A stretch of DNA of 64,000 bases from a virus (IMGVR_UViG_3300006928_000001:1-64000); one strand, 5' to 3'. Shown: positions 21,744 to 52,829, counted from the stretch's first letter. Numbers and translations: made by a program. The notes: a model not told the origin generated them from the letters alone.

Positions 21744-22126
21744 GACAACTTCCAGTCACAATCCCTGTTTGAACAGTACCTATTGCCCGATGTAGAATAG
21801 ACTTCATGACCACACATGGGGCATGGATACTTTACAACGTAAGGTTCCTGTTGATACATCTGTACGAACGCATCATTTGCCTCAAACAACGTTGGTAGCT
21901 TCATCCCGTTGATACTAGCGCCAGGAACCATCACAGGCAGGATCATCTTATCGAACCATGCCAGTAGCTTTTGACGCTGAACTTCAGTCATCTCTTCGTC
22001 AGGACCTATATCATCACAGATGAGTGTGTGAAACCGCTGCCCGATCAGAGGGTTGTGTTGCATCGGCTTGATGACTACTACGTTATCAGGGTCGTTAGTT
22101 ATGACTAGTAGTTTGTTCTTTTTCAT
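21740..22126 (-). CDS. Small protein with a terminase Walker-B-like segment and C-terminal Zn ribbon
   Basis: GQRFHTLICDD...RQKLLAWFDKMILP; CPMC...C....C. Confidence 0.55.
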   Translation of the reverse strand: MKKNKLLVITNDPDNVVVIKPMQHNPLIGQRFHTLICDDIGPDEEMTEVQRQKLLAWFDKMILPVMVPGASINGMKLPTLFEANDAFVQMYQQEPYVVKYPCPMCGHEVYSTSGNRYCSNRDCDWKLS

Positions 22127-25745: not shown

Positions 25746-26390
25746 TTACCTGTTGACAACGCTCATAGCGATTTCCATAATGTAGTCTTCGCGAGTCGGT
25801 AGTGGAGGCACTTTTCCATACATACAGCTAATCCATTGATCAAGACAAGCTTTTACCATACGTTCAAACGCCCGATGATACGCGAGACTCTGTTGTCGTG
25901 CAGGGTCATCTCCAACATTAATGAACGCGTCCATACTACAGAACAAAACCAAGTCATACCGTAGCATATGCTTTGCGGCGTTAAGCTCGAACTCGTCACT
26001 CAGTGAGTATGGAGCGTGCATAGCAGTATAGCAATAATCGTCGATAGTAGTTCTATCGGTGATGAACCTGTCGTGGTTATTTTCCCACTCGATTTTTTCA
26101 GTTTGTAGACGCCGCTGAAACATAGTTCGACACGTGTTACCCTTAGAGCCATAGTTGTTGTAGTCAGACACCGCCGCCTGTGCCGCTAGGTCAGGAGTTA
26201 GTCCTTCTAAAACTGCGGCGTTATACGCAGGTTGGTTAGCAAGATCAACGTCGTACGGATTAGTAAAACCGAGAACTTCGGCGGTGCTACGTGACCCCAC
26301 CGGGTTAATTGGCACATGAAATCGCTCAGACAACATCCGAGCAATCGTGGTCTTTCCAGTTCCGCTAGGTCCACACAGTCCGATTCTCAT
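25746..26390 (-). CDS. P-loop nucleotide kinase (AAA_28/NadR-like)
   Basis: IGLCGPSGTGKTT, FITDRTTID, YDLVLF, DDPAR. Confidence 0.8.
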   Translation of the reverse strand: MRIGLCGPSGTGKTTIARMLSERFHVPINPVGSRSTAEVLGFTNPYDVDLANQPAYNAAVLEGLTPDLAAQAAVSDYNNYGSKGNTCRTMFQRRLQTEKIEWENNHDRFITDRTTIDDYCYTAMHAPYSLSDEFELNAAKHMLRYDLVLFCSMDAFINVGDDPARQQSLAYHRAFERMVKACLDQWISCMYGKVPPLPTREDYIMEIAMSVVNR

Positions 26391-26959
26391 TTCGGTTCTC
26401 CTCTGTACTTGTTCGGATAGTAGTGTTGACCCATGACCTTGAGAGCAGACGTGATCTCTTCTTCGGTCACGAGTTTCAAGTCCTTGGCTTCTTCATCGGA
26501 CATAGGAGTCAAAAGCTGTTCGCGAGCGTTGGTATACTTATCAATACGTATTTTCGCTTCAGCCGCGATCTTAGTACTCACAGAGTCTTCATCTTCGTGA
26601 TAATCACCCATGAAAATGACGTGCTTAATACCAGCCGAAGCAATCAGCTTCAGACAGGTAGGGCATGGATGCGTCGTCACAAAGATTGTGCAGCCATCTG
26701 TACTCTGTCCACCTAGTGCAGCCTGAGCAATAGCGTTTGACTCAGCGTGTACAGTACGGACGCAGTGTCCGTCGTGCATCAGATGGCCAACGTCGTCACA
26801 GTGCGGTGCTCCAGGTAGAGAGCCGTTGTATCCAGTGGCCACGATGTGACGACGCGAATTGATGATCACACACCCAACTTGACGACGGTTACACGTGGCT
26901 CTAGTCGCTACCATTTGAGCGATAGTCATAAAGTAGTCATGCCATGCTGGTCTACTCAT
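26387..26959 (-). CDS. dCMP deaminase
   Basis: RATCNRRQVGCVI, TGYNG, HAESNAI, PCPTC. Confidence 0.95.
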   Translation of the reverse strand: MSRPAWHDYFMTIAQMVATRATCNRRQVGCVIINSRRHIVATGYNGSLPGAPHCDDVGHLMHDGHCVRTVHAESNAIAQAALGGQSTDGCTIFVTTHPCPTCLKLIASAGIKHVIFMGDYHEDEDSVSTKIAAEAKIRIDKYTNAREQLLTPMSDEEAKDLKLVTEEEITSALKVMGQHYYPNKYRGEPK

Positions 26960-28181: not shown

Positions 28182-30608
28182 TTAAGCGGCGATATCGACG
28201 GCCTTAACGTCGCTAACGCCATCCCAAGACTTGGGCCCGCGCTCAGACGAACTGGCAAGCGGAACCTTAAGTCCAAAGAACGCAGTCATACACGACCGAA
28301 TACACCAATCAGTATGTGGTGTGTCAAGCTCTTCCTTAATCTCGTTCATCAATTCATCATGGATACAAGTGAGCACCCGTGCGTCAGTAGGGATGCGGCG
28401 ACGAATGATTGGATGAATCTCAGTGGCGTTGAATGCCTTACTCGCAAACATTTGACACGTGCGAACAAATCCAACCTTAAAGGCAGAAGCAGCCCAGCCC
28501 TGGATGAGACGGTTGAGACCAACGTACGCCTTACTGATAGGCAGATAGTACCTTCTACCGAATGGGTCAAAGACAAATCCACGCTGTCGAAGTGCCTTTT
28601 TGATGTTATCCTGAACCTGCTTGATTTCAGGTAGGCGACCGTGGTATTCACGCATGTACTGGTAACTTTGTGCCTTGGTCCAACCCTGGCCTCTAGCCAG
28701 CTTCTTTTGACCCATGCCGTATAGAATACCGAAGTTAATACCCTTGGCAGACTTGCGGTCCATACCAATTTCGTCAGCGACTCCTTGGTGAGCATCAAAC
28801 GGATTTTCTTCCATGGATAGATGACGTCGCCAATCAACATCGTACTTCGACTTGTCTGGCAATTCACCTGTTTCCATGTAGTCTCTAATGTACTTCAATT
28901 CGTCTGAGACTTGGTCATCCTGCATCGGAGTTCCGTACCCGTCACAGAACAGAGTTGCTCCTGTGTAGTGGGCAAATCCACGTAGCTCAACCTGACTGAG
29001 GTCCAGTAGCCTCATCATATGACCGGGCCTAGAGATGAACAGTGAGCGTACTGAAAAGTCTACAACTGGAGACCCGGGTTCAAGCTTCAATACCTTGGCT
29101 TCATCACCCTCTTTACACTTCGACATTACCATAACGTTCTTAGTGTACTCGTATTCACGAGGTGACAAGAACGCTTCGAGGATTCTAAATAGCAGATCAG
29201 CATTGACCAGCATCTTAAACCGCTTCGGTACCTGCTGCGCATTATAGTCAGCAGAACTCATACGTCCAGAAACAGTCCCAACTGTTCTTAGCCGATGAAA
29301 CATCAAATCTACCCAGTCGTCAACTACTGGGTAGTTAAACCATGGGTCAGGGCAGGCTTTAGCACCGAATGTCTCGGCGCGCTCATTAAACCACGCCAAA
29401 GCAGTGTTGCACTTTCGATAGACCTGAAGCATGAACATGAGGTCTTCATGTTCTGGATGTTGTTCGCCATAATGTTGAAGAGCATCAACATCAAGTGACA
29501 TGTAATCGATGATCGACTTATCACCGTATCCAGCCATAATCTTGACTTGGTCACGCTCTCTCATTTTCTTGAATGCATCAGTGGTATGCATCATGGACGG
29601 TTTAAAACCGAAGTCTTTGTTACGGAAGAGAATACCACGAAGCTGCTGGTTACTGCCAGGGTTCAACGTCGGCATCTTAAGGTAAGACCTTACCCAACGT
29701 GTAGCGACAGCTTGGAGAGTCGTAGCTGCTACCGTCTGACGTTCTGCCAAGTTGCGGTCATACCTAGTACCACGCATACCGGCAATGGTAGCTTGGATAG
29801 CTGACTCGATTTCTAGTTCGTATAGGTCAAGGCGGTATCGACGGTCAGGACCCCTGTACCACCACCATCGTGTGGGCGCTTGATAAATCCACTTGTACCA
29901 CTTGAGGAAAATCAATAGCGTGTCTGCAGCATCGTCCTGCGCGTAAAGACCAGCCAATGGAACTGGCGCGCGCCAAATGTCTGCGCCTGGCTTGAACTTA
30001 TGGTCTTTCAGCCAACGATCCATATCATTCTTGGTATCCAAATCACGACCAAGAACATCTTTCTGGAGGGGCTTAAGACCAATGAGCTCATTCCAACCAA
30101 CGCCCTTGTTTAGAACACGAGCCGCGATTTGAATGTCGTGCAGCTGACCTTCCAATGGCCAAACTATATTCTCGGCTAGCATGAAACCAAGCTCCATGCT
30201 AAGATTGTGTACTACAACCAATTTGTCTTTTGGTCTTTCTTTCATCCACTCGGAGAAGGATTGAATGACCTCCTTAGACGACGGCTGTATACCTCCAGCA
30301 AAGCGTTGATCATGCCGAATGCCAATGTATGCAGATTTCACTTTGCCGAGATCTTCATCTAGCCAAGCGATAGCGATCCCAGCTATTTTTGCGCCAAACT
30401 CGGGCCTAAGGGCTGAGGGGTATGCCTTGTTGACCTTCTTACCGATCTTCTTTGGTGCTAAGTCGATAGTACGACCATTTGGTTTGGTCTCAAAGTCGAA
30501 CCCAACGAACCGCGCCTTCATGGCTTCGGCAAGAATCAGGTCCCAATGCTCTATCGTCCAACATGTGGTGTAAAGGTCGATAGTGCGGTCAATAGACGGT
30601 TGAATCAT
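28182..30608 (-). CDS. polA: DNA polymerase family A with 3'-5' exonuclease
   Basis: DFET, HN..E, YAQDD exonuclease motifs; TVSGRMSS, DLSQVELR, KGINFGILYG, NRLIQG, IHDEL. Confidence 0.95.
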   Translation of the reverse strand: MIQPSIDRTIDLYTTCWTIEHWDLILAEAMKARFVGFDFETKPNGRTIDLAPKKIGKKVNKAYPSALRPEFGAKIAGIAIAWLDEDLGKVKSAYIGIRHDQRFAGGIQPSSKEVIQSFSEWMKERPKDKLVVVHNLSMELGFMLAENIVWPLEGQLHDIQIAARVLNKGVGWNELIGLKPLQKDVLGRDLDTKNDMDRWLKDHKFKPGADIWRAPVPLAGLYAQDDAADTLLIFLKWYKWIYQAPTRWWWYRGPDRRYRLDLYELEIESAIQATIAGMRGTRYDRNLAERQTVAATTLQAVATRWVRSYLKMPTLNPGSNQQLRGILFRNKDFGFKPSMMHTTDAFKKMRERDQVKIMAGYGDKSIIDYMSLDVDALQHYGEQHPEHEDLMFMLQVYRKCNTALAWFNERAETFGAKACPDPWFNYPVVDDWVDLMFHRLRTVGTVSGRMSSADYNAQQVPKRFKMLVNADLLFRILEAFLSPREYEYTKNVMVMSKCKEGDEAKVLKLEPGSPVVDFSVRSLFISRPGHMMRLLDLSQVELRGFAHYTGATLFCDGYGTPMQDDQVSDELKYIRDYMETGELPDKSKYDVDWRRHLSMEENPFDAHQGVADEIGMDRKSAKGINFGILYGMGQKKLARGQGWTKAQSYQYMREYHGRLPEIKQVQDNIKKALRQRGFVFDPFGRRYYLPISKAYVGLNRLIQGWAASAFKVGFVRTCQMFASKAFNATEIHPIIRRRIPTDARVLTCIHDELMNEIKEELDTPHTDWCIRSCMTAFFGLKVPLASSSERGPKSWDGVSDVKAVDIAA

Positions 30609-31567
30609 CGAAGATTAGCCTTCATCAGTCTGTCGTATTCTGGCCACAAATGTCTATCTCGGTTGATAGCGCCAATGAAAGGCTTTAGCCCATCATTTCC
30701 GTACGGGCAGTCACCAGTAAGAATCATCTGCCATACGTTCTTAAGCCTTCTCGTAGTATCAGCATGAAAGATGCTTTTAAAGCTCGGCAGTTCAGGTACT
30801 AGAACCTCAGGAATGTTAATCCTGCGACTGTAAATCGCATCAGCGTCGTCGAAGTTAGTACCATACAGATGGAGATTACTCAACACATGATTATACACGC
30901 CAGGCTCTAGTTCAAGCATAGACGCAACAACCCGTTGTACCGTTGTAAACGACAGTACGTCATACGGCATGCCGAGCCAAACATCGTGACTTCGCATGAA
31001 CACAGTCAGATTCAACTTGCCGTTACGAATAGTAAAGTGCCAAGCAACCGTACACGGAATGTCCTTGGATCGCCAGGAGTTTCCGTCCCATTCTGGCTGT
31101 TGAGGATCGTTGCTGGAAACAACACCAGCTGACTTCAGTGTTGGATAATCATCCTGACCTTCGTGCGGATGAGGATACCCGTTAAACGGACCAACTTGAG
31201 GTCTCCAAGTAGTTACTATAGCTTGACGGCTATCAGGATCGCGTTGAAGGGTCGCGACAACGTGATTGATCTGGCCCATAAGACGTGGCCCATAAGCTCC
31301 CCACAGAACTTTACCGTCATCACTAAACTGTGCCATGACCTTGTTGTAGTCACTGATGACTTTGACGTCATCGGACCCAGCAAGAATCCAAGCAGCTTCA
31401 GCAAAGCCAAAACGATAGTTCACCCGTCGGATTGGATCTAGGATGAAAGGCTTATGAACGTCAGTTAGCTGAAGAGTGACAGGCCACGGAACCTCATACA
31501 CTAGGTTACCACGTGGCGCTGACTCAACTCCATGCAACAAACATAATGAAAGGGCGTACCTCCACAT
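30605..31567 (-). CDS. ThyA-fold pyrimidine nucleotide (hydroxy)methyltransferase, Asp-type (dCMP-directed candidate)
   Basis: GAYGPR, DSRQA, DIPC (catalytic Cys), MRSHD..LGMPYD, NLHLY. Asp replaces the ThyA Asn177. Start placed at ATG 31567. Confidence 0.85.
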   Translation of the reverse strand: MWRYALSLCLLHGVESAPRGNLVYEVPWPVTLQLTDVHKPFILDPIRRVNYRFGFAEAAWILAGSDDVKVISDYNKVMAQFSDDGKVLWGAYGPRLMGQINHVVATLQRDPDSRQAIVTTWRPQVGPFNGYPHPHEGQDDYPTLKSAGVVSSNDPQQPEWDGNSWRSKDIPCTVAWHFTIRNGKLNLTVFMRSHDVWLGMPYDVLSFTTVQRVVASMLELEPGVYNHVLSNLHLYGTNFDDADAIYSRRINIPEVLVPELPSFKSIFHADTTRRLKNVWQMILTGDCPYGNDGLKPFIGAINRDRHLWPEYDRLMKANLR

Positions 31568-31608
31568 GGAGTCGCCTGTTTTGAAAGTAGGGACCCCGAA
31601 TGAAGGGT

Positions 31609-31962
31609 TTACTGTTTCTGAGACTCGCTGGAAGCTGCCTTTGAGGAGGTCTTCGACCGAGACTTTGAAAGCTGCTTCGAGGCTACGGTCTTGGATTCGA
31701 CCTTGGGTTCGGCCGAGGGTGCGATGGGCGGTGGCGCATGTTGGTGCCGACCGTACACTCTCCGGAAAATTCTCAAACTCTTCGAGAGTCCCGGATCGGC
31801 CTGAATCAAGGAGAGCCCTTCTCGGTGAAACTTGATGGTCTTCGTCTTTGGCGTCAACTTCAGTGTATCGTCCGTCAGGCGGTTCCACGCCTCCAGAAGG
31901 TTGTGAAATGTCTTCTGATTGCGCTCCGGCATCCGGAAGATGATGTCCGCCTGGAATTCCAT
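31609..31962 (-). CDS. Small basic hypothetical protein
   Basis: AAGGAG SD, G/C-ending codons, Ser/Lys-rich tail. Confidence 0.7.
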   Translation of the reverse strand: MEFQADIIFRMPERNQKTFHNLLEAWNRLTDDTLKLTPKTKTIKFHREGLSLIQADPGLSKSLRIFRRVYGRHQHAPPPIAPSAEPKVESKTVASKQLSKSRSKTSSKAASSESQKQ

Positions 31963-32016
31963 GACTATCTCCTTTGGACACAGTCTACCCCTTATCAGTC
32001 TAGTGAACCATGAGGT

Positions 32017-32577
32017 TCAGTTCGTCTGGTCTCGAAATGAAGAGAGGATTGTCTTAGCCATCCAAGATGGATATCCCCTCATGTCTTGAGTGTACCAGTA
32101 TGGTGAGATAGCCCCTAACCGACTTAGGTCACCACAGCAACGCATGAAACCACTTGCGATGGGACCTGCATGGGACATACCTGCTCCAGACTTCTTGTCT
32201 GGAATACCACCATCACGTTCAACTTGACGCTTGAGAATACTCAATAGCGGCAACCAACAGTGCACCAACTTTCCACCGTTGGCGACAATACGTTCATCGA
32301 TTTCACGCGCTTCGTTCATGGAGAGGTTAGACCCTCCTCGGAGAAGATTGGCGTATACGATCTCGCCAACGTGAAACCGATCGACTACTACTAGCGTACC
32401 AGTTTCTGAAATCTCGATGAGATCGTCAAGCATGATGTCGTAGTGCAGATATGGCGGAATATCAGTTGGTGGTGGGCCGTTGTTGATTCGTACAACTGGA
32501 CCGTCAAATTCTGCTTCAATAGCGTCAGCAAGGGTGGACTTACCGACGCCATCAGCTCCTTCCAGGAAGATCATCAC
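32017..32577 (-). CDS. dNMP (thymidylate-like) kinase
   Basis: IFLEGADGVGKST, VVDRFHVGEIVY. Confidence 0.85.
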   Translation of the reverse strand: MMIFLEGADGVGKSTLADAIEAEFDGPVVRINNGPPPTDIPPYLHYDIMLDDLIEISETGTLVVVDRFHVGEIVYANLLRGGSNLSMNEAREIDERIVANGGKLVHCWLPLLSILKRQVERDGGIPDKKSGAGMSHAGPIASGFMRCCGDLSRLGAISPYWYTQDMRGYPSWMAKTILSSFRDQTN

Positions 32578-32753: not shown

Positions 32754-32972
32754 TTACTCCTGCGCTTGTTCAACAGCAGTCTCAAGATAAGCCTTGGCTG
32801 CGATGAACTCTTCACTACTGGTATGGGCGTCTAGGTACGTTGCGAGATTATCGTACAATTCTGGCTGTTCGTCACTATTAGTAATATGGTACTGCGTAAT
32901 CATAGCCATCAACTTCGGTTTATTTTCCGTGTCAGCGAAGTGATCTACAATCGACTGCATCAACGGAGTCAT
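32754..32972 (-). CDS. Hypothetical protein
   Basis: 72 aa, coupled to the methyltransferase gene. Confidence 0.65.
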   Translation of the reverse strand: MTPLMQSIVDHFADTENKPKLMAMITQYHITNSDEQPELYDNLATYLDAHTSSEEFIAAKAYLETAVEQAQE

Positions 32973-33907
32973 CCTGCAATCTCCTTGGCGTCAGCTGGAA
33001 CACGAACCTTCCAGGCAATGTTGCGAGCCGCCTCGGGATGCATGGCACTGAACACACACGACAAAGTGTGTGGACTATGGTAGTTAGCCAGACGATTCCA
33101 GATTTCAATCTCCTTATCATCCATAGCACGAAAAAGATTACGAAGATTACTGAATGTCCCGTACTCTTCCATCACCTCACATCCGCGCTTTTCAAAAGCA
33201 CGACGTAGTTCAGACCGCTGCCATTCATAGATGTGGTTCTTGGCGATGAATCCGCCATTGACTGGCGTAGACAACAGAATCATCCCATCTGCACCATCCT
33301 CGCGCTCAGGCTTGCGGCGCGCATAACGAACCATTCCATCTAGGAATCGCTCGCCGTCAGGCTTGTCCATGTGCTCAAGTACTTCAAAGGAAATGACGAC
33401 GTCAAACGTCCAATCAGGAACTTTCTCCGGCTCGTCAACAGCATTCGTCTTACTGAGAATCTTGGTCTCAATGCCGGAAACGCGTGGACGGTACTTGATT
33501 TGATTCAGGTCTACGGCGCAATACTGCGAAGGCTTGTAGTGCTTAACGGCGCTATGGTCGCAGGTAAGCGTACGGAACAGAGGAATTTCTTTGCCACATC
33601 CCATTTCCATGATTCGAACGCCGGCTCCAAAGTGTTCCTTAACGACCTTCATCGGAAAACCATACCTGATTGCGTGAGCTAGGTAGTCACGTCCAATACG
33701 GTATGCCTTCTCAGGGGAAAGATGAGACTTATCGAACCGATTATCATCGGATCGTTCAGTTGGTGCAGCCCGGCTATGCGTCTTCTGTTCAAAGTACGGC
33801 TCAGCTTCCTTTACCGGCAGCCAATTATGCTCACCATCATCACCAGGCTCTGCCTCTCGGCGAAACTGACCGGTTCGAAGACAAACAAATCCTACGACGT
33901 CACTCAT
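32969..33907 (-). CDS. Class I SAM-dependent methyltransferase
   Basis: IMEMGCG, AVD, FDVVISFEVLEHM, LSTP, NHIYEW. Confidence 0.85.
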   Translation of the reverse strand: MSDVVGFVCLRTGQFRREAEPGDDGEHNWLPVKEAEPYFEQKTHSRAAPTERSDDNRFDKSHLSPEKAYRIGRDYLAHAIRYGFPMKVVKEHFGAGVRIMEMGCGKEIPLFRTLTCDHSAVKHYKPSQYCAVDLNQIKYRPRVSGIETKILSKTNAVDEPEKVPDWTFDVVISFEVLEHMDKPDGERFLDGMVRYARRKPEREDGADGMILLSTPVNGGFIAKNHIYEWQRSELRRAFEKRGCEVMEEYGTFSNLRNLFRAMDDKEIEIWNRLANYHSPHTLSCVFSAMHPEAARNIAWKVRVPADAKEIAG

Positions 33908-37046: not shown

Positions 37047-38006
37047 TCACGGCTTCGTACCATCTCGCTTGCACAAGCGATAAAACGGGCAACGCTCACA
37101 TACAGACGGGTCGTCAGTTGCTTCAAACTTATCACGGATAGGGATGTTTTGGTCTAGATCACCATCTTTCAAGCGATCGGCCAGATCTTCGGCAAAGAGA
37201 TCGATGATCATCCCAGTTTTTTCGATGTCTTCATCGGTGATGCGAAAATGATCTACTTGCACGTTTTCTTGACTGATGTATGGAATTACAGAATGGACGG
37301 ATGACCATCCAAGACCGTTAGCCCACATTCCGTACAGTTTAGCTTGTAGTTTGTCTTTCTTACGCTTGCGGCCAGTCTTCCAATCCACTACTATGACAGA
37401 GTTATCACTACCACGAATAACCAAGTCCATAGCTACCCAGACTCGTAACCCTGACCTTCGAAAAGACATCAAATCTTCGACCATAACTATTTGCCTGTAG
37501 TTATTGATCGCGTGTCGCAATATGTTCCTAGTCTCATTACCAGTATCGGCTTTGTACCAGGAGTTATCCTTCGCTAAAGAGTGTAATTTTTGCTGTATCC
37601 GCAGCCAGACATTCTCCCAATTTACCGGTTCGCCGTCAATAATTTCTGATAGCTGTAGCCTATGCTTCGGATTGCCAGAGTGTTGATTTAGAGCTTGGTC
37701 TTGCCCACGTGCGAACATACTTCGTGCGTGGGCAAGCATCACCGGTTCTATGTCACTAAACTTACGGCCTTGCCTAGCTTGATCGAGGATATGCTGTGCA
37801 GCCTTATGGATGATTTTTCCTGACCATGATGGTATCGTCTCAATAAACTTAGCCTCGTAGTTCTCCTCAGCTGTTCTGTCAGATGGAGGCTTATTACCAC
37901 GCCACCACCCACCCCATGAAGCATAAGTCCACCGATAGTATTTCAGTGGACACTCTGCAATCATCGTTGCTTTAGAGAATGAAAACGATGCTTCGTTCTT
38001 AAACAC
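37047..38006 (-). CDS. Cas4/RecB-like PD-(D/E)XK exonuclease
   Basis: SFS....CPLKYY, G..IH, MDLV, VDWKTG, Q..LY, C..C.F...C. Confidence 0.85.
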   Translation of the reverse strand: MFKNEASFSFSKATMIAECPLKYYRWTYASWGGWWRGNKPPSDRTAEENYEAKFIETIPSWSGKIIHKAAQHILDQARQGRKFSDIEPVMLAHARSMFARGQDQALNQHSGNPKHRLQLSEIIDGEPVNWENVWLRIQQKLHSLAKDNSWYKADTGNETRNILRHAINNYRQIVMVEDLMSFRRSGLRVWVAMDLVIRGSDNSVIVVDWKTGRKRKKDKLQAKLYGMWANGLGWSSVHSVIPYISQENVQVDHFRITDEDIEKTGMIIDLFAEDLADRLKDGDLDQNIPIRDKFEATDDPSVCERCPFYRLCKRDGTKP

Positions 38007-39295
38007 TATGCAGCCTCAGACTCGCTAAGTGGCATCTTGATATCGGGGTGCCGCTTAGCCCACCAGGCTTGACGCTCCTTTAGAGACATCTTAAGCGAGA
38101 GACGTTCTCCACGACTACGCCAGTCAATCGCCTGCATCCAAGAGTTACGGTGACTTGGCTCACCAGTTAAAGCCGGAACGGTTCGTACTCCTCGTCTAAT
38201 ACCATCTGCCAAGACTCTACCCAAAAATGCGGCATTATGCGTACACAGCCCGCGACCAATTTCGGCATACGCCTTAGACTTTGGTGAGAACTCGTAGTCA
38301 AGCGGAAACCCCATGATGGTTGCACACTCACGCGGCGTGAGATACCTGTCTTCTACTGGGTGGATGACGGTATGGCCGCCTAGAATATTCGGTGATGGTC
38401 GATCAAGGCGACCACGGGTGTGCGTGAATCCCGGCCTAGAAGAACCATTCCATTTTGCGCCACGAGGCCGATAATGCTTATGCATCAATTCATCTGCCAC
38501 TTCACGTAGATGTGATCCTGGAGGGCAGTACGGCATAATGGACCTGAACGCACCAAAGTAGGTATTCTTGTTGTTAGGAAGATCACCACCGTTTTTTACG
38601 AGCTCTAGTGCGTCTCCAAGAGTCTTGGAACCAAGATTGTCTGCAGATTCGTTATTGTAAACGCCACGCCAATCTAGATCGTATTTACTAGCTACGAAAT
38701 GGAACCTTCGTCGATCTTGGTATCCACCATGAATAGCGGATGTCGTTAGAAACGCATAACACCTGTATCCAAGGGATCTTGCTCTAAAGGCCATCGCGTC
38801 TAGAAAGCTACGTTCCTTGCTAAAGATTGCTGGAACTAGCTCCCAAGTCCAGATGTCTGGCTGAAGACGGAATGCTGCCTCGTACGCTACGTACCGTGTG
38901 TAGCACATTCTGTCATCACTAGATCCTTCGTGCTTCCCAGGCCCAGCATAGGCTACACACGGCGGATTCGCATAGAAAATACGAGGTACATTACCCGCAC
39001 TCTTTAGCTCATCAATGAATGACAACCAATCTTCTCCGTTAGTGGACCTGTTAAGATACCCGTCTTTGAGAGGGATATTAGCAACCGGCCAACGTTGGCG
39101 TGACACGTTGCTACCTAAGTCTAGATCAGGTAGCTCTAGATGACCAGCAACGTTAATTCCAGCCTGCTCCATACCAAGACTGAAAGCTCCAGCAAAAACG
39201 CATGCACCCAGAGCAGTGACTTCGTTACGCCCAGCTTCTAGTTCAGCATGAATTGCGTCCATTTGTTCGCGGTTAGACAATGGAAGATACGACAT
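38006..39295 (-). CDS. Divergent DNA (cytosine-5) methyltransferase-like protein
   Basis: VFAGAFSLG (motif I), NPPC (IV), WELVP (VI), QDRRR (VIII), RYLTPRECATIMGFP (IX). Confidence 0.85.
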   Translation of the reverse strand: MSYLPLSNREQMDAIHAELEAGRNEVTALGACVFAGAFSLGMEQAGINVAGHLELPDLDLGSNVSRQRWPVANIPLKDGYLNRSTNGEDWLSFIDELKSAGNVPRIFYANPPCVAYAGPGKHEGSSDDRMCYTRYVAYEAAFRLQPDIWTWELVPAIFSKERSFLDAMAFRARSLGYRCYAFLTTSAIHGGYQDRRRFHFVASKYDLDWRGVYNNESADNLGSKTLGDALELVKNGGDLPNNKNTYFGAFRSIMPYCPPGSHLREVADELMHKHYRPRGAKWNGSSRPGFTHTRGRLDRPSPNILGGHTVIHPVEDRYLTPRECATIMGFPLDYEFSPKSKAYAEIGRGLCTHNAAFLGRVLADGIRRGVRTVPALTGEPSHRNSWMQAIDWRSRGERLSLKMSLKERQAWWAKRHPDIKMPLSESEAA

Positions 39296-40083
39296 TAGTA
39301 GCCATCCTTCTGACGCTTGAAGTTAATGTCGTTCTTATGCATGAACGCGTAGTATAGATGGTCAAGTTTAACGCCTGGAATAGCCTGTGCGCAGGCACAG
39401 ATTTCAGGCATCAGCGTAAAGTAAATGAACCCAGATCCGGGTGGAAACTTGTGAGGATTTACAGCACCATTACTAACAAGAATCTGTTGGCGAATAGCCG
39501 CTGCAGTATCAACAAGTAGCTGACGTAGATAGTTAATCCTGGCCGCTACCTTTTTCTCCCAATCCTCGCCATGTGCTCCGTCAGCATGACTGAACATACT
39601 ATAGATTGCAAGGTTCGGACCCTGTCCATTACGTTCAGCCAGAGCCCAAGCAAAGTCAAGACCAAACGCAGGTACCTGCACTTGCATGGCGCTAGCTGTA
39701 ACTTTTGCCACAAGCTCCCGCTCAGGTTGTCCGCCCATGAAAAGATATGCGTTGACGACGAAGTGCATCACGTCGACAAGCTCCATGAGCAACTCATCTT
39801 TGTCGGCTTGAACAGGGTTAGACTTATGGTGCTTCCATCCACCTTCCACCATGTCCCAAGCTTCACTAGCCTCTTGGACACCCATATCAAGATGGTGGAT
39901 AACCCTACGTGGAAGGCAGAACGTCTTCTTGCCGAAGTCTTTCAGCCTGGAATCGTATGACCCAACCAGAGTCTGAAAATCCATCTGTCGCTTAATGATT
40001 TTTGCCTGGTGATCAATCGACCAGTCAAGTTCATCAAATTCGGTGTCGATGGAGAATTCATCGGCACAGTTCTGCACTTTCAT
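39295..40083 (-). CDS. Dimeric all-alpha dUTPase/dCTPase
   Basis: QEASE, WKHHK, ELVDVMHF, KNDINFKRQKDGY. Confidence 0.85.
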   Translation of the reverse strand: MKVQNCADEFSIDTEFDELDWSIDHQAKIIKRQMDFQTLVGSYDSRLKDFGKKTFCLPRRVIHHLDMGVQEASEAWDMVEGGWKHHKSNPVQADKDELLMELVDVMHFVVNAYLFMGGQPERELVAKVTASAMQVQVPAFGLDFAWALAERNGQGPNLAIYSMFSHADGAHGEDWEKKVAARINYLRQLLVDTAAAIRQQILVSNGAVNPHKFPPGSGFIYFTLMPEICACAQAIPGVKLDHLYYAFMHKNDINFKRQKDGY

Positions 40084-48217: not shown

Positions 48218-48703
48218 TTAGCCCCACATCCACTCAGACGTAAAATCGTTTTGCGGACATTCGATTTCATCAATCTGCGGAAATGGTGACTGTCCGTGCT
48301 TCACACGTTGAACAGCGACTTCAAATGTATTTCGCCCAATTGGCTTAAACGTCAGGCCGCCACCAACTCTGGTTTCTGCAGCGCGTCGTTTGTCGCGACT
48401 AGTAGCCCATCCGGTCATCAACCCAATTTTCGTCTTTGGGGAGTGCTCACGAATAGCCTCTCCTAGACCAACACCAACAGGACCACCATTCAACCGTACG
48501 TCGATTATAACGATGTTAGGTTGCCACTGCTCTGCTGTGTCTAGGGCTTCTCTTTTTGAAGTTACGCCACGTACACTCGCACCCAATCCTCGCATATGAT
48601 TCATATACGATTTTAGTGCAATGACGTTATCTTCGACGATAAGAACTCTTAGCTCTTCATTTGGGTCTGGTGGGTCTGGCCAAATATTGGTTCCTGGCAT
48701 CAT
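48218..48703 (-). CDS. Single-domain response regulator (CheY-like receiver)
   Basis: VLIVEDN, IIDVRL (phospho-acceptor Asp), MTG, FKP. Confidence 0.88.
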   Translation of the reverse strand: MMPGTNIWPDPPDPNEELRVLIVEDNVIALKSYMNHMRGLGASVRGVTSKREALDTAEQWQPNIVIIDVRLNGGPVGVGLGEAIREHSPKTKIGLMTGWATSRDKRRAAETRVGGGLTFKPIGRNTFEVAVQRVKHGQSPFPQIDEIECPQNDFTSEWMWG

Positions 48704-49404
48704 GGGATTCCTTTAACACGCGTCTTGAGCGTGTTAGCTGCGGAGCTGATTACCCATCGTGTAAAAGCCGCTCTAGACGAGCGCACAGCAGAATCTTCGC
48801 TATCAGGGTCTTCGTCGTCATCCTCATTTGGCATGACCATCGACGCAGGTGCTGCGTGATGAACTGCTAGGTACACTAGCTTTCTATCGTCTTCGGCTCT
48901 CCATAGCGTTTCGATAGATGCACTCAGAACGTCAGATACTTGCCACTGATCACGTAGCTGACCAGGATTGACCTCTGACAGATCAAGGATGATAGACTTC
49001 TCGTCTTTTTCGATGAGATGAGAAAGCACAGAAGCTCTGTACGAATCTGTTACTTCTCGTCTACTCCAGTGGTTCTTAATTGGTTCAACTGCCCTAAGCG
49101 TGGCTTCTGAGACAATCGTTATGAACAGGTTAGATTTCGCTTCTCGTAGTGCGCCACCACCATTAGTAACGACTACGATAAACGCTCTTAGAGCAGCAGT
49201 TTCATTTACGATTCGTTGAAGCTGATTCTGAATGGCGAGCATATCACCACCACTAGCTTCTGCGTTAAGCTCTTCCTGCTTATACTTACGCCACCGTGCC
49301 CATAGCTCTCTAATCAACTGTCCAAATGCTACAGACGCAGTTGAGATAGCCGCTGCCACTTCTTTAGGGTGTGACTGAATGATTGCGTCAAACCAAGCAA
49401 GCAT
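48700..49404 (-). CDS. N-terminal TM + GAF-like domain protein (holin-like candidate)
   Basis: Hydrophobic N-terminal helix, then LQRIV.ET.ALRAFIVVVTNGG..ITIVSE GAF-like pattern. Confidence 0.5.
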   Translation of the reverse strand: MLAWFDAIIQSHPKEVAAAISTASVAFGQLIRELWARWRKYKQEELNAEASGGDMLAIQNQLQRIVNETAALRAFIVVVTNGGGALREAKSNLFITIVSEATLRAVEPIKNHWSRREVTDSYRASVLSHLIEKDEKSIILDLSEVNPGQLRDQWQVSDVLSASIETLWRAEDDRKLVYLAVHHAAPASMVMPNEDDDEDPDSEDSAVRSSRAAFTRWVISSAANTLKTRVKGIP

Positions 49405-50072
49405 TAGTCCATACCACCACGAATAAGTTCAAACGTCTTTTCACCACGATCAGACGCTTGAATGGAATTCATTTTGTGCTGAATCTCATTGAGAATCTGC
49501 TCACGGTCACTAGCCTTTTCTGACCAGAAGGCGCTAGCACGACCCTTAAGATTGAGGTCCGGCATCATCTCGGCTAGTGATTCTTCAACTGAGGTTAGTT
49601 CTCTACATGCATCGCGTAGAGCTGTAGAGAACTGCGTTTTTCCGCTTTCACACTTTTCTAGTTCCGTCATTACGTATGCCGAAAGAGCTTCCCAGCGTTC
49701 CATAACCATGCGAATCTTAGTAGAATGGAACTCGATACCAAGAATAGCCCACACCTGAGCTTCAGCTTCAAGCAAAGCATCTCGACGAATCGCTGACCGT
49801 TTGGACTGAAAGATGGCACGCTTCTCTCTCCACCGCTCAGCGCGAGACCGTCTGCGTAGTTCACCTGGAACTGTGTGCTGCTCCATCTCTTCGAATTGGT
49901 CTGAATACATGCGGACAAGCTGCTGCATAGTCAATGGCACAGGACTGCAGATGAAAGCATCACCTGGGTCCTGGAAGACCAAGCGCAGATCTTCAATTGA
50001 ACCATTGCCATTTTGAAGACGATTGATCAGTGAAGTCTGACTCTCGTCAAGTCCGTCGTTGTCGTCTCGCAT
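49404..50072 (-). CDS. Helical protein, possible terminase small subunit
   Basis: LRRRSRAERWREKR HTH-end pattern followed by coiled helices. Confidence 0.4.
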   Translation of the reverse strand: MRDDNDGLDESQTSLINRLQNGNGSIEDLRLVFQDPGDAFICSPVPLTMQQLVRMYSDQFEEMEQHTVPGELRRRSRAERWREKRAIFQSKRSAIRRDALLEAEAQVWAILGIEFHSTKIRMVMERWEALSAYVMTELEKCESGKTQFSTALRDACRELTSVEESLAEMMPDLNLKGRASAFWSEKASDREQILNEIQHKMNSIQASDRGEKTFELIRGGMD

Positions 50073-50091: not shown

Positions 50092-50574
50092 TTATCCTGT
50101 GATTCCAGACCTGTGAGCTCGACTGTTTTCGATGTGACGCCAAGATACGTACCGTGCTAACTTAGCATCTTGTGGTGCTACATTTATTTGATTCTCGACA
50201 AAGATTCGATACGCATCGATAACATATTGACTGTTACCATCAATCTCTGGAGGTCGTAGCCCCATGATCCATTGTCTAGACATTTCTACGATTTCTTTTG
50301 TACGCTTATGGTGAGACCCTAGAGGTCTGAGATACCGTGCCATCCGTCTGTGCGCGTCAGACGGCGCGAAGGCTACATTATGCGCTCGTGGCCAATCAAT
50401 GAGAAACTTCCATATAGCTTCGTCATTGAGTATCATGCTAGCCAGTACTACTCGCCAACTATGCTCGTCTTCATCTTCGCCACCTACCATTTCCTGCGGT
50501 AGTAGAAGTGGGCTTTCAGGGTACCCTCGGTTCTCAACTTGGAGGAGCAAGTATTCAAACTCGTAGTCAATCAC
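50092..50574 (-). CDS. MBD4-like HhH-GPD DNA glycosylase domain
   Basis: SPLLLPQE, WRVVLASMILN, WKFL..WP, LRPLG, QYVIDAYRIF, PQDAKLARY..W track the MBD4 catalytic domain. Confidence 0.8.
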   Translation of the reverse strand: MIDYEFEYLLLQVENRGYPESPLLLPQEMVGGEDEDEHSWRVVLASMILNDEAIWKFLIDWPRAHNVAFAPSDAHRRMARYLRPLGSHHKRTKEIVEMSRQWIMGLRPPEIDGNSQYVIDAYRIFVENQINVAPQDAKLARYVSWRHIENSRAHRSGITG

Positions 50575-50698
50575 GTTTCTGACTCAGTACAGGAGTAGAT
50601 TCTAGTCGAGCGATTTCGTTGTTAATTTTACGCAGTTCCTCTTCAAGCTTACGTTTCTTTTGATGAAGAAGCATTAAACGTTGATTATGTTCATCCAC
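50567..50698 (-). CDS. 43-aa coiled-coil peptide
   Basis: GTG start overlapping the upstream stop; heptad-rich. Confidence 0.45.
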   Translation of the reverse strand: MDEHNQRLMLLHQKKRKLEEELRKINNEIARLESTPVLSQKRD

Positions 50699-52829
50699 CG
50701 ATGAGGAATGCATGGGCCTCTCCAATAATATCTTCGATAGCGATGTTCCCGACGAATGTATCACCAGTGGGGCTAGTACCACTAGTAGCATCTCGGTAGA
50801 ATCGAATCCACAACTTGTCTCCAGGCACGAACGATGAGATGTCGAGCTCGAACTCTGTACGCTGGAGCACGTCATCATCAGCGGGAACAATGGCTGTGAT
50901 CTCGGTGATCGTGTCGATGGCCACACCAGAACCATCGATTGTATCTCCGATTCGAGCTCGGCCATACTCGATGGACAGCGCAACGTTACCGGTGGCTGAC
51001 GCCCGGGGAAGCCAGTCGATCCGGAACCGAGCTTTAATTGCTGTGTTCACCCAATTTGGCATGATGACCTTGGCACCACGGGCGTCTACCTGACCATTGT
51101 TGTACGAGTTGTCGCCTGGAGAGAGCGATGTCGTCGAGCTATACGCGATGTTGTTGTTACCAGGGCTTGTCGATGTGTTGACTGTGTCGGCGAAACGGAT
51201 CAGAGTCCGCCACTGTTGGAGAAGCCCGTAGAGTTTGGCCCCCACCTGATCCGCGGCCAGACGGCTCGTGCCGATCTCGCATCGGCTGAACTCCATGGGA
51301 GTTGTGAACGTGGTGGCCGGTCGAACTGACAGCCAGTAGTACTCCTGACTGTTATGTGTATCAGCATCCCAGTCGTCAAAAGCCGTTGCATGGTGGTCTA
51401 GATGCTGTGCAACCCGCGTTGACGTATCGTCTTTGAATACATCGTTTCCGACTGGGTCGACGCCTCGAACCAGACTGGCGTCCATGACGTCGATCTCGTT
51501 CCAGCCGCTAGCACCGTCGGACAGTTCGATCACTACGTCTCCGGAACCTAGTGCCGTAGCCAGAGCGTACACCCAGTTCGTGAACTTGCCAAACTTGTAA
51601 CCAATGAGAATTCGGTCATTGGTGTCACCGGGATGCACTACGTTGGTACCATCACTGACGTTGGCTGTGACGTCGGTGTAGACACCAGAGCCTCCTCCAG
51701 CGCTGTCGTCGTACGAGAGGACCACCATGTTCTCGACGCCGGGTGCACCCTCGACAGCATAGAAGTTCTGCGGGTTTCTGGGTGCACCATGACTGAATCG
51801 ACCACCTGCGCGTGTAGTTGGCGGGTTTACCACACCTTCGTCGAAGTAGAATACCCGCAGATCGTCACCAAGACCGGACACGAACGAAGCTGGGACGTCG
51901 ATCTGCTCGCGCCGCATCTCCATGCTGGTGAGCGAAAGAATGGAGCCACTATACGCTGGGCCATCATCTGCTGTGAAGTCATTGGCCGTTCCGTGGAGAC
52001 GACCGCCGTTCATGACCATCGTGAATGGTCCGTCGCCGAAGTGAACCGCGTTGTTAATTCCACCACCACCATTCGGTGTGATGATTTTGACATCGACATA
52101 CGCTCCGGCAGAACCACTGTCGAACACAAAGACAGTGTCGGTGATCGTCATGGCAGGGCCACAGTCGATGGTACCTGGTCCTGTCACGTTTGCGTCTGTG
52201 TTGAGATTGATTCCCTTCGCCAAAGAGCCGTTGTTGAAGTTGATGCCTCCAGCGAGAACTCGCACGTTTCCGTCGTTCACCTCGATACCAGCCACAGCTG
52301 CCGAACCACTGTTGAACGACAATTGGTTGACAACCAAAGCATTGGTGTTCTCGGCTCTGACGCCTTCACCACCACCGGTGGGGACTTGGCAGACTACTCG
52401 AGTCAGAAACGAGTTCGCTCCCTGTGTTAGAATCGAAGGGGACGAACCGTCAGCACCACCATTGACACGAATGTCCTGGATGCTGCTGTTATTGTTCAGC
52501 GTGATTGTTGGGCCAGTACCATCACCTTCGATGACCGTGGCACTGATAAGTGTCGCGGCCATGATCTTGACACCAGCAGGTGTGTCGACACCAGACCCCA
52601 CGTTAAAAGTACTCGGCCCAAGTACGACCACGTCACCTGATGTTGCGTCTTGAAACGCTTCGGCAATCGTGTCGTAACTTTCCTGCGTAGTAGCCGTCAG
52701 AAGGTTTACACCAACAAACGAATTGATGTCGTCCAACGCGGCGTTGACTGCCGTGTACCATGCCCACTCAAGTTCTAGATGCTCAGCAACCAAATCAATG
52801 TCTGAATATGGACGTGCTGCGTCAATCAT
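50691..52829 (-). CDS. Beta-helix (pectin lyase-like) virion/receptor-binding protein
   Basis: YDTIAEA...A.SGDVVVLGP.TF beta-helix cap; G/N/T/D-rich; start MIDAA at 52829. Confidence 0.65.
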   Translation of the reverse strand: MIDAARPYSDIDLVAEHLELEWAWYTAVNAALDDINSFVGVNLLTATTQESYDTIAEAFQDATSGDVVVLGPSTFNVGSGVDTPAGVKIMAATLISATVIEGDGTGPTITLNNNSSIQDIRVNGGADGSSPSILTQGANSFLTRVVCQVPTGGGEGVRAENTNALVVNQLSFNSGSAAVAGIEVNDGNVRVLAGGINFNNGSLAKGINLNTDANVTGPGTIDCGPAMTITDTVFVFDSGSAGAYVDVKIITPNGGGGINNAVHFGDGPFTMVMNGGRLHGTANDFTADDGPAYSGSILSLTSMEMRREQIDVPASFVSGLGDDLRVFYFDEGVVNPPTTRAGGRFSHGAPRNPQNFYAVEGAPGVENMVVLSYDDSAGGGSGVYTDVTANVSDGTNVVHPGDTNDRILIGYKFGKFTNWVYALATALGSGDVVIELSDGASGWNEIDVMDASLVRGVDPVGNDVFKDDTSTRVAQHLDHHATAFDDWDADTHNSQEYYWLSVRPATTFTTPMEFSRCEIGTSRLAADQVGAKLYGLLQQWRTLIRFADTVNTSTSPGNNNIAYSSTTSLSPGDNSYNNGQVDARGAKVIMPNWVNTAIKARFRIDWLPRASATGNVALSIEYGRARIGDTIDGSGVAIDTITEITAIVPADDDVLQRTEFELDISSFVPGDKLWIRFYRDATSGTSPTGDTFVGNIAIEDIIGEAHAFLIGG

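What the first reader, a model, noticed from the sequence alone, without database searches (positions are those of the whole stretch)
50092..50574. Phage MBD4-like glycosylase with intact base pocket but remodelled DNA-gripping elements
Seen, against my recollection of the MBD4 catalytic domain: SPLLLPQE ~ SPFNLVQE, WRVVLASMILN ~ WKLLIATIFLN, LRPLG ~ LKPLG, DAYRIF ~ DSYRIF, PQDAKLARY ~ PEDHKLNKY. The pocket Gln and Tyr and the catalytic Asp are kept. The Arg-finger loop after LN (RTSG...) is deleted and the HhH GIGKY has become GNSQY. Established: MBD4 excises T, U or hmU opposite G after deamination of 5mC, C or hmC. Inference: this is a companion repair enzyme for a methyl/hydroxymethyl-C genome, or a repurposed modified-base reader. 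A write-and-repair pair for modified cytosine in one phage would be notable.
Basis: partly seen in the sequence, partly recalled or inferred. Interest (0 to 1): 0.75.

Follow-up and report, generated by a model that had tools for sequence, protein, structure and literature searches.

The report
Phage MBD4-type glycosylase, DNA grip remodelled
A 108-kb phage that appears to make C5-modified cytosine carries a stand-alone copy of the MBD4 mismatch glycosylase, an enzyme type that also sits beside the 5-methylcytosine genes of the classical phage Xp12; this copy keeps its catalytic pocket but alone has lost every element that normally grips duplex DNA.

Summary
ORF 50092-50574(-) encodes a 160-aa MBD4-family HhH glycosylase: PDB E 1.5e-10, family profile 2e-61, AlphaFold pLDDT 96, and the 16 best fold matches are all MBD4. 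It keeps Gln449, Tyr540, Asp560 and Lys562 (human numbering). Among the full-length members of a 238-row family alignment it alone lacks the intercalation loop R468-A474. It also alone has Leu508->Ser and Val448->Pro, plus GIG->GNS in the hairpin. Of 55 conserved columns it deviates at four, all in published DNA/base-contact segments (p=0.005). That argues against long-term decay.

The host genome is a complete phage encoding an Asp-type ThyA homologue, a dCTPase-like protein, a dNMP kinase, a dCMP deaminase and two C5-MTases.

Among 50,697 phage records I found the family in the Xp12 group (all-5mC DNA), in cyanophage S-TIM54, and as a weaker match in an archaeal virus I did not examine. Both phage lineages carry Asp-type ThyA; in Xp12 it lies one gene away in the same gene run. 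I found no paper describing this link.

The family most likely repairs deaminated 5mC/5hmC in phages. This copy is a derived variant whose activity is uncertain: a weakened or ssDNA-directed enzyme, or recently inactivated. A non-catalytic "reader" role is disfavoured.

The parts
50092..50574 (-). MBD4-family HhH DNA glycosylase gene, 160 aa, GTG start, no Cys residues (so no Fe-S cluster)
50491..50499 (-). Codons P26-Q27-E28 = human V448-Q449-E450. The pocket Gln is kept. The O4-reading backbone amide is lost through Val->Pro.
50422..50427 (-). Codons N50-D51: the junction where the 7-residue intercalation loop (human R468-A474) is missing. The AlphaFold model joins helices 35-48 and 51-60 by a two-residue turn.
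50314..50325 (-). Codons P84-L85-G86-S87 = human P505-L506-G507-L508. The wedge Leu is replaced by Ser, the only Ser among 238 family rows.
50224..50238 (-). Codons G113-N114-S115-Q116-Y117 = human G536-I537-G538-K539-Y540. The HhH hairpin is degenerate; the pocket Tyr is kept.
50161..50169 (-). Codons D136-A137-K138 = human D560-H561-K562. The catalytic Asp is kept.
50567..50713 (-). Small upstream ORF (about 48 aa, heptad-like). Its stop overlaps the glycosylase start (GTGATTGA), which suggests translational coupling.
49404..50072 (-). 222-aa gene of unknown family immediately downstream. It neighbours the glycosylase gene in the related phage G001 as well (44% identity).
30605..31981 (-). 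Asp-type ThyA homologue (catalytic PC motif; MRSHDVWLGMPYD). Best solved relative is the CMP hydroxymethylase MilA. The true start is probably near 31567.
32017..32577 (-). P-loop dNMP/thymidylate-kinase-like gene (sub-threshold Pfam match only, 22.1 bits against a cut-off of 27)
38006..39295 (-). C5-cytosine DNA methyltransferase homologue (63% identical in G001). A second paralogue lies outside the window at genome 78711-80513.
39295..40083 (-). dUTPase_2-family (all-alpha NTP pyrophosphatase) protein, a candidate dCTPase
26387..26959 (-). dCMP deaminase

Best explanation
The gene encodes a stand-alone MBD4-type monofunctional pyrimidine DNA glycosylase. An ancestor of this phage lineage (G000, G001 and a 13-member protein clade) acquired it. 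In phages that put a C5 substituent on cytosine, the family most likely removes T or 5hmU left opposite G when 5mC or 5hmC deaminates. By established knowledge, uracil-specific host Ung cannot act on these lesions. After excision, phage PolA, a ligase and a host AP endonuclease would complete base-excision repair. In this phage the protein still folds as MBD4 and keeps the base pocket and catalytic residues (Q27, Y117, D136, K138). After it split from its nearest relative (P0003), it lost the minor-groove plug loop, the wedge Leu, the Gly-rich hairpin and the O4-reading amide. My committed reading is that it is still a pyrimidine N-glycosylase. It would no longer extrude a base from intact duplex DNA or check the orphan G. 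It would therefore act weakly, or on bases already unstacked, such as ssDNA, replication forks or recombination intermediates. Shown: family membership, fold, residue pattern, genome context and co-occurrence. Inferred: substrate, retention of catalysis and type of DNA engaged.
For: Family and fold: E 1.5e-10; profile against MBD4 2e-61; next best, Mig/EndoIII, about 1e-12; pLDDT 96.2; 16 best fold matches all MBD4, TM 0.76-0.80 normalised by the target.

Residues: D560 is conserved in 237/238 rows, Y540 in 234/238 and Q449 in 195/212, and all three are kept here.

Targeted change rather than decay: P0001 deviates at 4 of 55 conserved columns, all within the contact segments of PMC3479182, and at 0 of 39 elsewhere (Fisher p=0.005). 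Its total number of deviations is ordinary (4 against a median of 3). Its terminal branch is 0.65 against 0.26 for the sister.

Context: Asp-type ThyA, dCTPase-like protein, kinase, deaminase and two C5-MTases. The gene order is syntenic in G001, which has the same set.

Independent lineages: Xp12 gp61 lies one gene from the Asp-type dCMP methylase in the same gene run. Donnerlittchen has the same arrangement. S-TIM54 has Asp-type ThyA plus a C5-MTase. These glycosylases fall in a different subclade from the window's.

IMG/VR: 10 of 80 flanks hold a ThyA-family ORF. Seven could be typed, all Asp and none Asn, although 14 of the 49 whole records searched hold Asn-type TS elsewhere.
Against: All three DNA-binding regions of MBD4 are altered, and the human R468W variant is loss-of-function (PMC7781447). 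Duplex activity may therefore be gone altogether. Val448->Pro removes a base-reading hydrogen bond, so the substrate base may differ or binding may fail. No HhH glycosylase is known to me that works without plug and wedge residues. Here the gene lies about 19 kb from the ThyA homologue, not adjacent as in Xp12. The phage's DNA modification is inferred from genes and has not been measured. Co-occurrence lacks a matched background rate. I chose the contact segments from the paper after I had already seen the deviant residues. With only identical copies available, recent inactivation cannot be excluded.
Confidence: 0.45

Rival explanations
1. It is a recently inactivated relic. The fold persists, but loss of the plug loop, wedge and hairpin has abolished DNA glycosylase activity, and the gene is on its way out or merely tolerated.
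For: It uniquely combines four deviations with the loop deletion; no other full-length member among the 238 rows has two or more. R468W alone inactivates human MBD4. Its branch is 2.5-fold longer than the sister's. It is among the less conserved orthologues between G000 and G001 (39.6%). It gives no Pfam HhH-GPD signal at all.
Against: The ORF is intact and identical on 32 contigs. All 39 conserved non-contact columns and all catalytic and pocket side chains are kept. On a branch of 0.65 changes per site this is not expected under long neutral drift. The start overlaps the upstream gene's stop, which suggests translational coupling.
Confidence: 0.25
2. It has been retargeted to a non-DNA substrate. 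The pocket and Asp would hydrolyse the N-glycosidic bond of a free 5-substituted pyrimidine nucleotide, for example 5hmdUMP made when the phage dCMP deaminase acts on 5hm-dCMP. This would keep the pool clean, by analogy with DNPH1.
For: Only the elements needed for duplex engagement are lost, while the pocket and catalytic residues stay. The genome encodes a dCMP deaminase, an Asp-type ThyA, a kinase and an NTP pyrophosphatase, so such by-products are plausible.
Against: I know of no precedent for an HhH glycosylase acting on mononucleotides. The net charge and pI of the domain are not unusual for the family. The idea rests purely on inference.
Confidence: 0.1
3. It is a non-catalytic reader or sensor of a modified base or DNA state, or an anti-defence decoy.
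For: HhH folds have been recruited as sensors of hypermodified DNA (iEndoIII in END nucleases).
Against: The END sensor domain lacks the catalytic residues yet still recognises hypermodified DNA. This protein shows the opposite pattern. It has no fused effector domain and no PADLOC-type context was looked for.
Confidence: 0.08
4. It is an offensive enzyme that attacks host DNA, for example by excising unmodified C or T from host DNA while modified phage DNA is spared.
For: Val448->Pro removes the amide that selects O4 over N4, so the pocket might accept cytosine. By established knowledge, phages with modified C such as T4 destroy C-containing host DNA.
Against: Loss of the duplex-gripping elements argues against efficient action on host chromosomal DNA. 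Canonical relatives in Xp12 and S-TIM54 show no such change.
Confidence: 0.05

Closest known systems
Human/mouse MBD4 glycosylase domain (PDB 4e9e, 4dk9, 6vjw, 4ew0, 1ngn)
   Same: Same fold (TM about 0.8), about 30% identity, no Fe-S cluster. Gln449, Tyr540, Asp560, Lys562, Leu506-Gly507 and Arg512 equivalents are present.
   Different: No MBD domain and only 160 aa. A clade-specific N-terminal helix and a 5-residue acidic insert follow QE. Loop 468-474 is deleted; Leu508 is Ser; the hairpin GIG is GNS; Val448 is Pro.
Xp12 gp61 and its orthologues (Donnerlittchen gp33, AXL_1 'ENDO3c domain protein', FMYAK-P1, MET13-T1, DoCa6) and S-TIM54 UYE97365
   Same: Stand-alone phage MBD4-family proteins in genomes with Asp-type ThyA homologues.
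   Different: They keep the full loop, the wedge Leu/Met and the G-x-G hairpin, and reach the Pfam HhH-GPD threshold. They belong to a different subclade. In the Xp12 group the gene heads the gene run that makes 5-methyl-dCMP.
Nearest relatives P0003 (54%) and P0007 (G001, 41%) in the 13-member phage clade
   Same: They share the N-terminal YEW helix and the insert after QE. P0007 also sits at the same syntenic position, next to the 222-aa gene; P0003's genomic context could not be examined (1.5-kb contig).
   Different: Both keep the loop, a Phe/Leu wedge and the G-x-G hairpin. The remodelling is specific to the window's phage.
Mig.MthI (1kea), endonuclease III and MutY
   Same: HhH-GPD superfamily. 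Mig is also a T:G mismatch glycosylase linked to a C5-MTase.
   Different: They carry a 4Fe-4S cluster and match the family profile far more weakly (about 1e-12 against 2e-61). The window protein has no cysteine.
iEndoIII sensor domain of END nucleases (PMC12191111)
   Same: An HhH glycosylase fold diverted from canonical repair in the phage-host conflict over modified DNA.
   Different: END lacks the catalytic residues, still recognises hypermodified DNA, and is fused to a nuclease. Here catalysis-related residues are kept, the DNA grip is lost, and nothing is fused.

Membership tests
MBD4 glycosylase-domain family (HhH-GPD superfamily) | Significant sequence similarity to MBD4 catalytic domains, stronger than to other HhH families | tested here: met
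   E 1.5e-10 for the single sequence. The family profile scores 2e-61 against MBD4 and about 1e-12 against Mig/EndoIII.
MBD4 glycosylase-domain family (HhH-GPD superfamily) | All-helical HhH-GPD fold superposable on MBD4 | tested here: met
   AlphaFold pLDDT 96.2, pTM 0.90. The 16 best Foldseek matches are MBD4, with TM 0.76-0.80 normalised by the target.
MBD4 glycosylase-domain family (HhH-GPD superfamily) | Catalytic Asp (human D560) | tested here: met
   D136 in PQDAKL; the column is Asp in 237/238 rows.
MBD4 glycosylase-domain family (HhH-GPD superfamily) | Pocket Gln449 and Tyr540 | tested here: met
   Q27 and Y117. Q449A is inactive in human MBD4 (PMC3479182).
MBD4 glycosylase-domain family (HhH-GPD superfamily) | Backbone NH at position 448 that reads O4 of T/5hmU | tested here: not met
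   Pro26, the only Pro among the 212 rows that cover this column.
MBD4 glycosylase-domain family (HhH-GPD superfamily) | Minor-groove intercalation loop 466-471 with a plug residue (R468) | tested here: not met
   Seven residues are deleted. This is unique among the full-length members of the 238-row alignment.
MBD4 glycosylase-domain family (HhH-GPD superfamily) | Wedge Leu508 in DNA-binding loop 503-511 | tested here: not met
   Ser87. The column holds L/F/M/I/V in 233/238 rows.
MBD4 glycosylase-domain family (HhH-GPD superfamily) | Gly-rich HhH hairpin (G-h-G) and the Pfam HhH-GPD signature | tested here: not met
   GNS instead of GIG/GVG; Gly538 is present in 231/238 rows. P0001 gives no PF00730 hit even at E 10, whereas Xp12 gp61, S-TIM54 and a vertebrate MBD4 reach the cut-off.
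MBD4 glycosylase-domain family (HhH-GPD superfamily) | No 4Fe-4S cluster, unlike Mig, EndoIII and MutY | tested here: met
   The 160-aa sequence contains no cysteine.
MBD4 glycosylase-domain family (HhH-GPD superfamily) | Excision of T/U/5hmU opposite G | not testable with these tools
   Needs a glycosylase assay.
Asp-type ThyA homologues (dCMP hydroxymethylase/methylase), the proposed 'writer' | Catalytic Cys, and Asp in place of E. coli ThyA Asn177 | tested here: met
   DIPCT and MRSHDVWLGMPYD in the window gene. The same Asp is present in Xp12 gp59, Donnerlittchen gp31 and the S-TIM54 homologue. Product (methyl or hydroxymethyl) was not determined. The best solved relative is the CMP hydroxymethylase MilA, and the genome has no DHFR.
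Inactivated HhH 'reader' domains (END iEndoIII type) | Catalytic residues lost, recognition of modified DNA retained, fused to an effector | tested here: not met
   The catalytic Asp and pocket residues are kept, the DNA-contact elements are lost, and the ORF stands alone.

The most novel reading that the evidence does not exclude
An HhH/MBD4-fold N-glycosylase has been evolutionarily retargeted away from intact duplex DNA. By shedding the plug, wedge, hairpin and orphan-G reading while keeping the pocket and catalytic Asp, it would act on extrahelical substrates in a phage with hm/mC DNA. These could be ssDNA at forks, or even free 5-substituted deoxyuridylates, which would make it a DNPH1-like pool sanitiser. 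More broadly, MBD4-type glycosylases would be a previously unrecognised standard accessory of phages with C5-modified cytosine, Xp12 included.
Probability: 0.15. Interest if true: 0.8.

Novelty: new variant of a known kind. Interest (0 to 1): 0.6.

Why it matters
Phages that replace C with 5mC or 5hmC gain protection from restriction, but they also take on a deamination problem. By established knowledge, the products (T or 5hmU opposite G) are not substrates for the uracil-specific Ung glycosylase. If MBD4-type glycosylases are the phage answer, this supplies a missing "maintenance" part of DNA-modification pathways. It would also give the hypothetical protein gp61 of Xp12 a function. Such genes could then help flag modified-cytosine genomes in metagenomes. 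They would also be small bacterial-virus T:G/5hmU:G glycosylases of possible use in methylation-sequencing chemistry. The window's copy is a natural experiment: it shows what remains of an HhH glycosylase once all duplex-invading elements are removed and the pocket is spared.

Tried and rejected

Searches that found nothing:
- The genome-contig scan with A5.
- The viral scan with P0003.
- megablast of the region against phages.
- tblastn of P0007 against phages.
- Pfam, PHROGs and NCBIfam for P0001.
- The large word-indexed protein search returned only the protein itself.

Ideas tested and dropped:
- The acidic-patch or charge argument for a non-DNA substrate: the domain pI of 6.7 is at the 26th percentile of the family, so it is not an outlier.
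- I first counted a divergent 262-280-aa ThyA-like family (IRSCDYIRHFRDD) in about 12 large IMG/VR contigs as Asp-type. I withdrew this, where one cultured-phage member is annotated 'pyrimidine hmase synthase'. From my own knowledge, relatives of some of the phages hit make 5hmdU-derived bases. The motif alignment is not secure either, so I leave these records as unresolved.
- The downstream 222-aa gene has no recognisable family or solved relative, and I make no claim that it is a partner.

Steps not attempted. dN/dS was not attempted: the only DNA-level relative (G001) is about 40% identical in protein, and all close copies are identical. I did not run complex prediction because I make no binding claim.

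Full report
**1. What is there**

The minus-strand ORF at 50092-50574 starts with GTG and encodes 160 residues. Its start overlaps the stop of a small upstream ORF (GTGATTGA). A 222-aa gene of unknown family follows it. All long ORFs in this part of the window run on the minus strand. The window is the first 64 kb of a complete 107,823-bp virus record with direct terminal repeats. Around the gene lie:
- a primase-MCM helicase, an SNF2 helicase and a Pam3 gp34-like protein;
- PolA, a topo VI-like fusion, a DinG-like helicase and a dCMP deaminase;
- a nucleotide-modification set: an Asp-type ThyA homologue, a P-loop kinase (sub-threshold Pfam match), a SAM methyltransferase, a C5-MTase and a dUTPase_2-family NTP pyrophosphatase.

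**2. Identity**

phmmer against all PDB sequences returns MBD4 catalytic-domain chains (15 distinct sequences, E 1.5e-10 to 2e-9); the next hit has E 1.2. An exhaustive phmmer search of 1.84 billion cluster representatives finds 251 relatives. A profile built from 95 of them scores 2e-61 against MBD4 and about 1e-12 against Mig and endonuclease III. AlphaFold2 with that alignment gives pLDDT 96.2 and pTM 0.90. The 16 best Foldseek matches in the PDB are all MBD4 structures, with TM 0.76-0.80 normalised by the target. The protein has no cysteine, so like MBD4, and unlike Mig, EndoIII and MutY, it has no Fe-S cluster. Pfam, PHROGs and NCBIfam give nothing for it. Canonical members (Xp12 gp61, S-TIM54, a vertebrate MBD4) reach the Pfam HhH-GPD cut-off.

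**3. Residue anatomy**

I numbered the human sequence by counting back from S580 along the alignment. This reproduces the published residues Q449, R468, L508, Y540 and D560. Moréra et al. (PMC3479182) describe the following:
- The pocket is formed by 447-449, 560-562, L466, G471 and Y540.
- The V448 backbone NH reads O4, and Q449A is inactive.
- DNA is bound by three regions: loop 466-471, loop 503-511 and the HhH hairpin 534-541.
- R468 plugs the gap left by the flipped base, and the carbonyls of R468 and L506 read the orphan G.

R468W is a loss-of-function variant (PMC7781447).

In the window protein Q27, E28, Y117, D136 and K138 correspond to Q449, E450, Y540, D560 and K562. The changes are R468-A474 deleted, L508 to Ser87, I537-G538 to Asn-Ser, and V448 to Pro26.

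In that alignment:
- the loop deletion is unique among full-length sequences;
- Ser at 508 occurs once in 238 rows;
- Pro at 448 occurs once in the 212 rows that cover the column;
- no other full-length member has two or more such deviations.

Of 55 columns conserved at 80% or more, the protein deviates at four. All four lie in the published contact segments and none in the 39 conserved columns elsewhere (one-sided Fisher p=0.005). Its total number of deviations (4) is close to the family median (3). One caveat applies: I fixed the contact segments from the paper after I had already seen the deviant residues.

**4. Evolutionary setting**

The protein belongs to a well-supported 13-member clade (SH-aLRT 99). 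The clade shares an N-terminal helix (YEW...) and an insert after QE. Its sister P0003 (54% identity) and P0007 (41%) keep the loop, a Phe/Leu wedge and the G-x-G hairpin. The window's terminal branch is 0.65 against 0.26 for P0003. The remodelling is therefore recent and lineage-specific.

P0007 lies on a 91.9-kb IMG/VR contig (G001). G001 is syntenic with the window's genome almost throughout (orthologues mostly 35-72% identical). It has the glycosylase gene at the same place next to the 222-aa gene, the ThyA homologue (about 50% identical) and the C5-MTase (63%). The window protein is letter-identical on 32 contigs from three sources. The deletion is therefore not an assembly artefact, but there is no variation with which to measure selection. 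The genome holds a single copy.

**5. Does the family go with modified cytosine?**

The window's ThyA homologue has the catalytic PC motif and MRSHDVWLGMPYD, with Asp where E. coli ThyA has Asn177. Its best solved relative is the CMP hydroxymethylase MilA. The genome has no DHFR, which fits a hydroxymethylase weakly. It has a second C5-MTase at 78711-80513.

Among 50,697 phage records, tblastn with four family members finds the family in:
- the Xp12 group (Xp12, Ep029, MET13-T1, YB23, AXL_1, FMYAK-P1, DoCa6, Donnerlittchen);
- cyanophage S-TIM54;
- more weakly, an Aeropyrum virus that I did not examine.

One search also returned a few weaker matches in Listeria, Enterococcus and uncultured-phage records that I judged, without checking, to be generic HhH proteins. 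Xp12 is the classical phage whose cytosine is replaced by 5mC (PMC7653180 abstract; replacement being complete is from my own knowledge). Its gp61 is annotated as hypothetical. It heads the run gp61 - hydrolase - 'thymidylate synthase' - dCMP deaminase - DHFR. That ThyA reads LRSSDLFVGLPYD, which is Asp-type. Donnerlittchen has the same arrangement and motif. S-TIM54 has ARSNDMATGVPLD and a C5-MTase. These glycosylases are canonical in loop, wedge and hairpin. They fall outside the window's clade. The ThyA homologues are only 25% identical to the window's. The association has therefore arisen more than once.

In IMG/VR, 232 contigs encode relatives. In the ±10-kb flanks of 80 of them, ten hold a ThyA-family ORF. 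Seven of these can be typed by the motif and all seven are Asp-type; none is Asn-type. Yet 14 of the 49 whole records searched contain an Asn-type TS elsewhere. A further divergent ThyA-like family in about 12 records could not be typed. I lack a matched background frequency, so the association is suggestive rather than proven. Five full-text searches found no paper that describes an MBD4-type glycosylase in phages, and a sixth turned up only the END nuclease paper.

**6. Interpretation**

The phage glycosylase would remove T or 5hmU from mispairs with G that arise when 5mC or 5hmC deaminates. By established knowledge these lesions are outside the range of host Ung.

For this copy, the pattern is pocket and catalytic residues kept, fold-determining positions kept, and every duplex-engaging element changed. 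That argues against long-standing pseudogenisation. It also argues against a non-catalytic reader. The known HhH reader (the iEndoIII domain of END nucleases, PMC12191111) shows the opposite pattern.

I therefore favour a still-catalytic enzyme that no longer extrudes bases from intact duplex or checks the orphan G. It would be weak, or it would act on unstacked DNA (confidence 0.45). The rivals are recent inactivation (0.25), retargeting to free nucleotides (0.10), a reader or decoy role (0.08) and attack on host DNA (0.05). None of these can be separated without assays.

**7. Verdict**

The protein is a new variant of a known kind. The by-product may interest phage and DNA-repair specialists more than the variant itself: MBD4-type glycosylases sit beside the cytosine C5-modification genes of Xp12-group phages and occur with such genes in other phages, apparently unreported.

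Noticed in passing
L006:7989-8471 (Xanthomonas phage Xp12 NC_073033, 46973-47455, gp61): The all-5mC phage Xp12 carries an unannotated canonical MBD4-family glycosylase. It heads the gene run that also holds the hydrolase, the Asp-type dCMP methylase, the dCMP deaminase and DHFR. The same arrangement is seen in Donnerlittchen; the other group members have the glycosylase gene, but their neighbourhoods were not examined.
   Followed up: partly
window 32969-33907 (-): A class I SAM methyltransferase next to the kinase and ThyA homologue is the best-conserved protein between this phage and G001 (72.5% identity). It may act in the base-modification pathway.
   Followed up: no
G000 genome 78711-80513 (+), outside the window (L131:14711-16513): A second, 600-aa C5-cytosine DNA methyltransferase paralogue, 46% identical to the single G001 copy.
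   Followed up: partly
window 48218-49404 (-): The CheY-like receiver and the overlapping 234-aa gene have no counterpart in the otherwise syntenic G001, so they look like a lineage-specific insertion between the glycosylase block and the SNF2 helicase.
   Followed up: no
L125:1060-1863 and L126:1324-2109 (IMG/VR contigs G033, G018) and about 10 further large contigs: A divergent 262-280-aa ThyA-like family (ERVPCT..., IRSCDYIRHFRDD) accompanies MBD4-like genes in many large viral contigs. In cultured phages it occurs in 115 records (Gordonia, Pseudomonas PMBT14, a Yersinia phage annotated 'pyrimidine hmase synthase'). Its base specificity is unresolved.
   Followed up: partly
window 30605-31981 (-): The first 130 or so codons of the ThyA-like ORF are not matched in the G001 orthologue and look non-coding or low-complexity. 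The real start is probably Met139, near 31567.
   Followed up: no
window 22123-24747 (-): A single-chain GHKL ATPase plus Topo VI-A/Spo11 Toprim fusion (874 aa) is 65% identical in G001, so it is a conserved core gene of this phage group.
   Followed up: no
window 50567-50713 (-): A small ORF of about 48 codons with heptad-like sequence lies upstream of the glycosylase. Its stop overlaps the glycosylase's GTG start by 8 nt.
   Followed up: no
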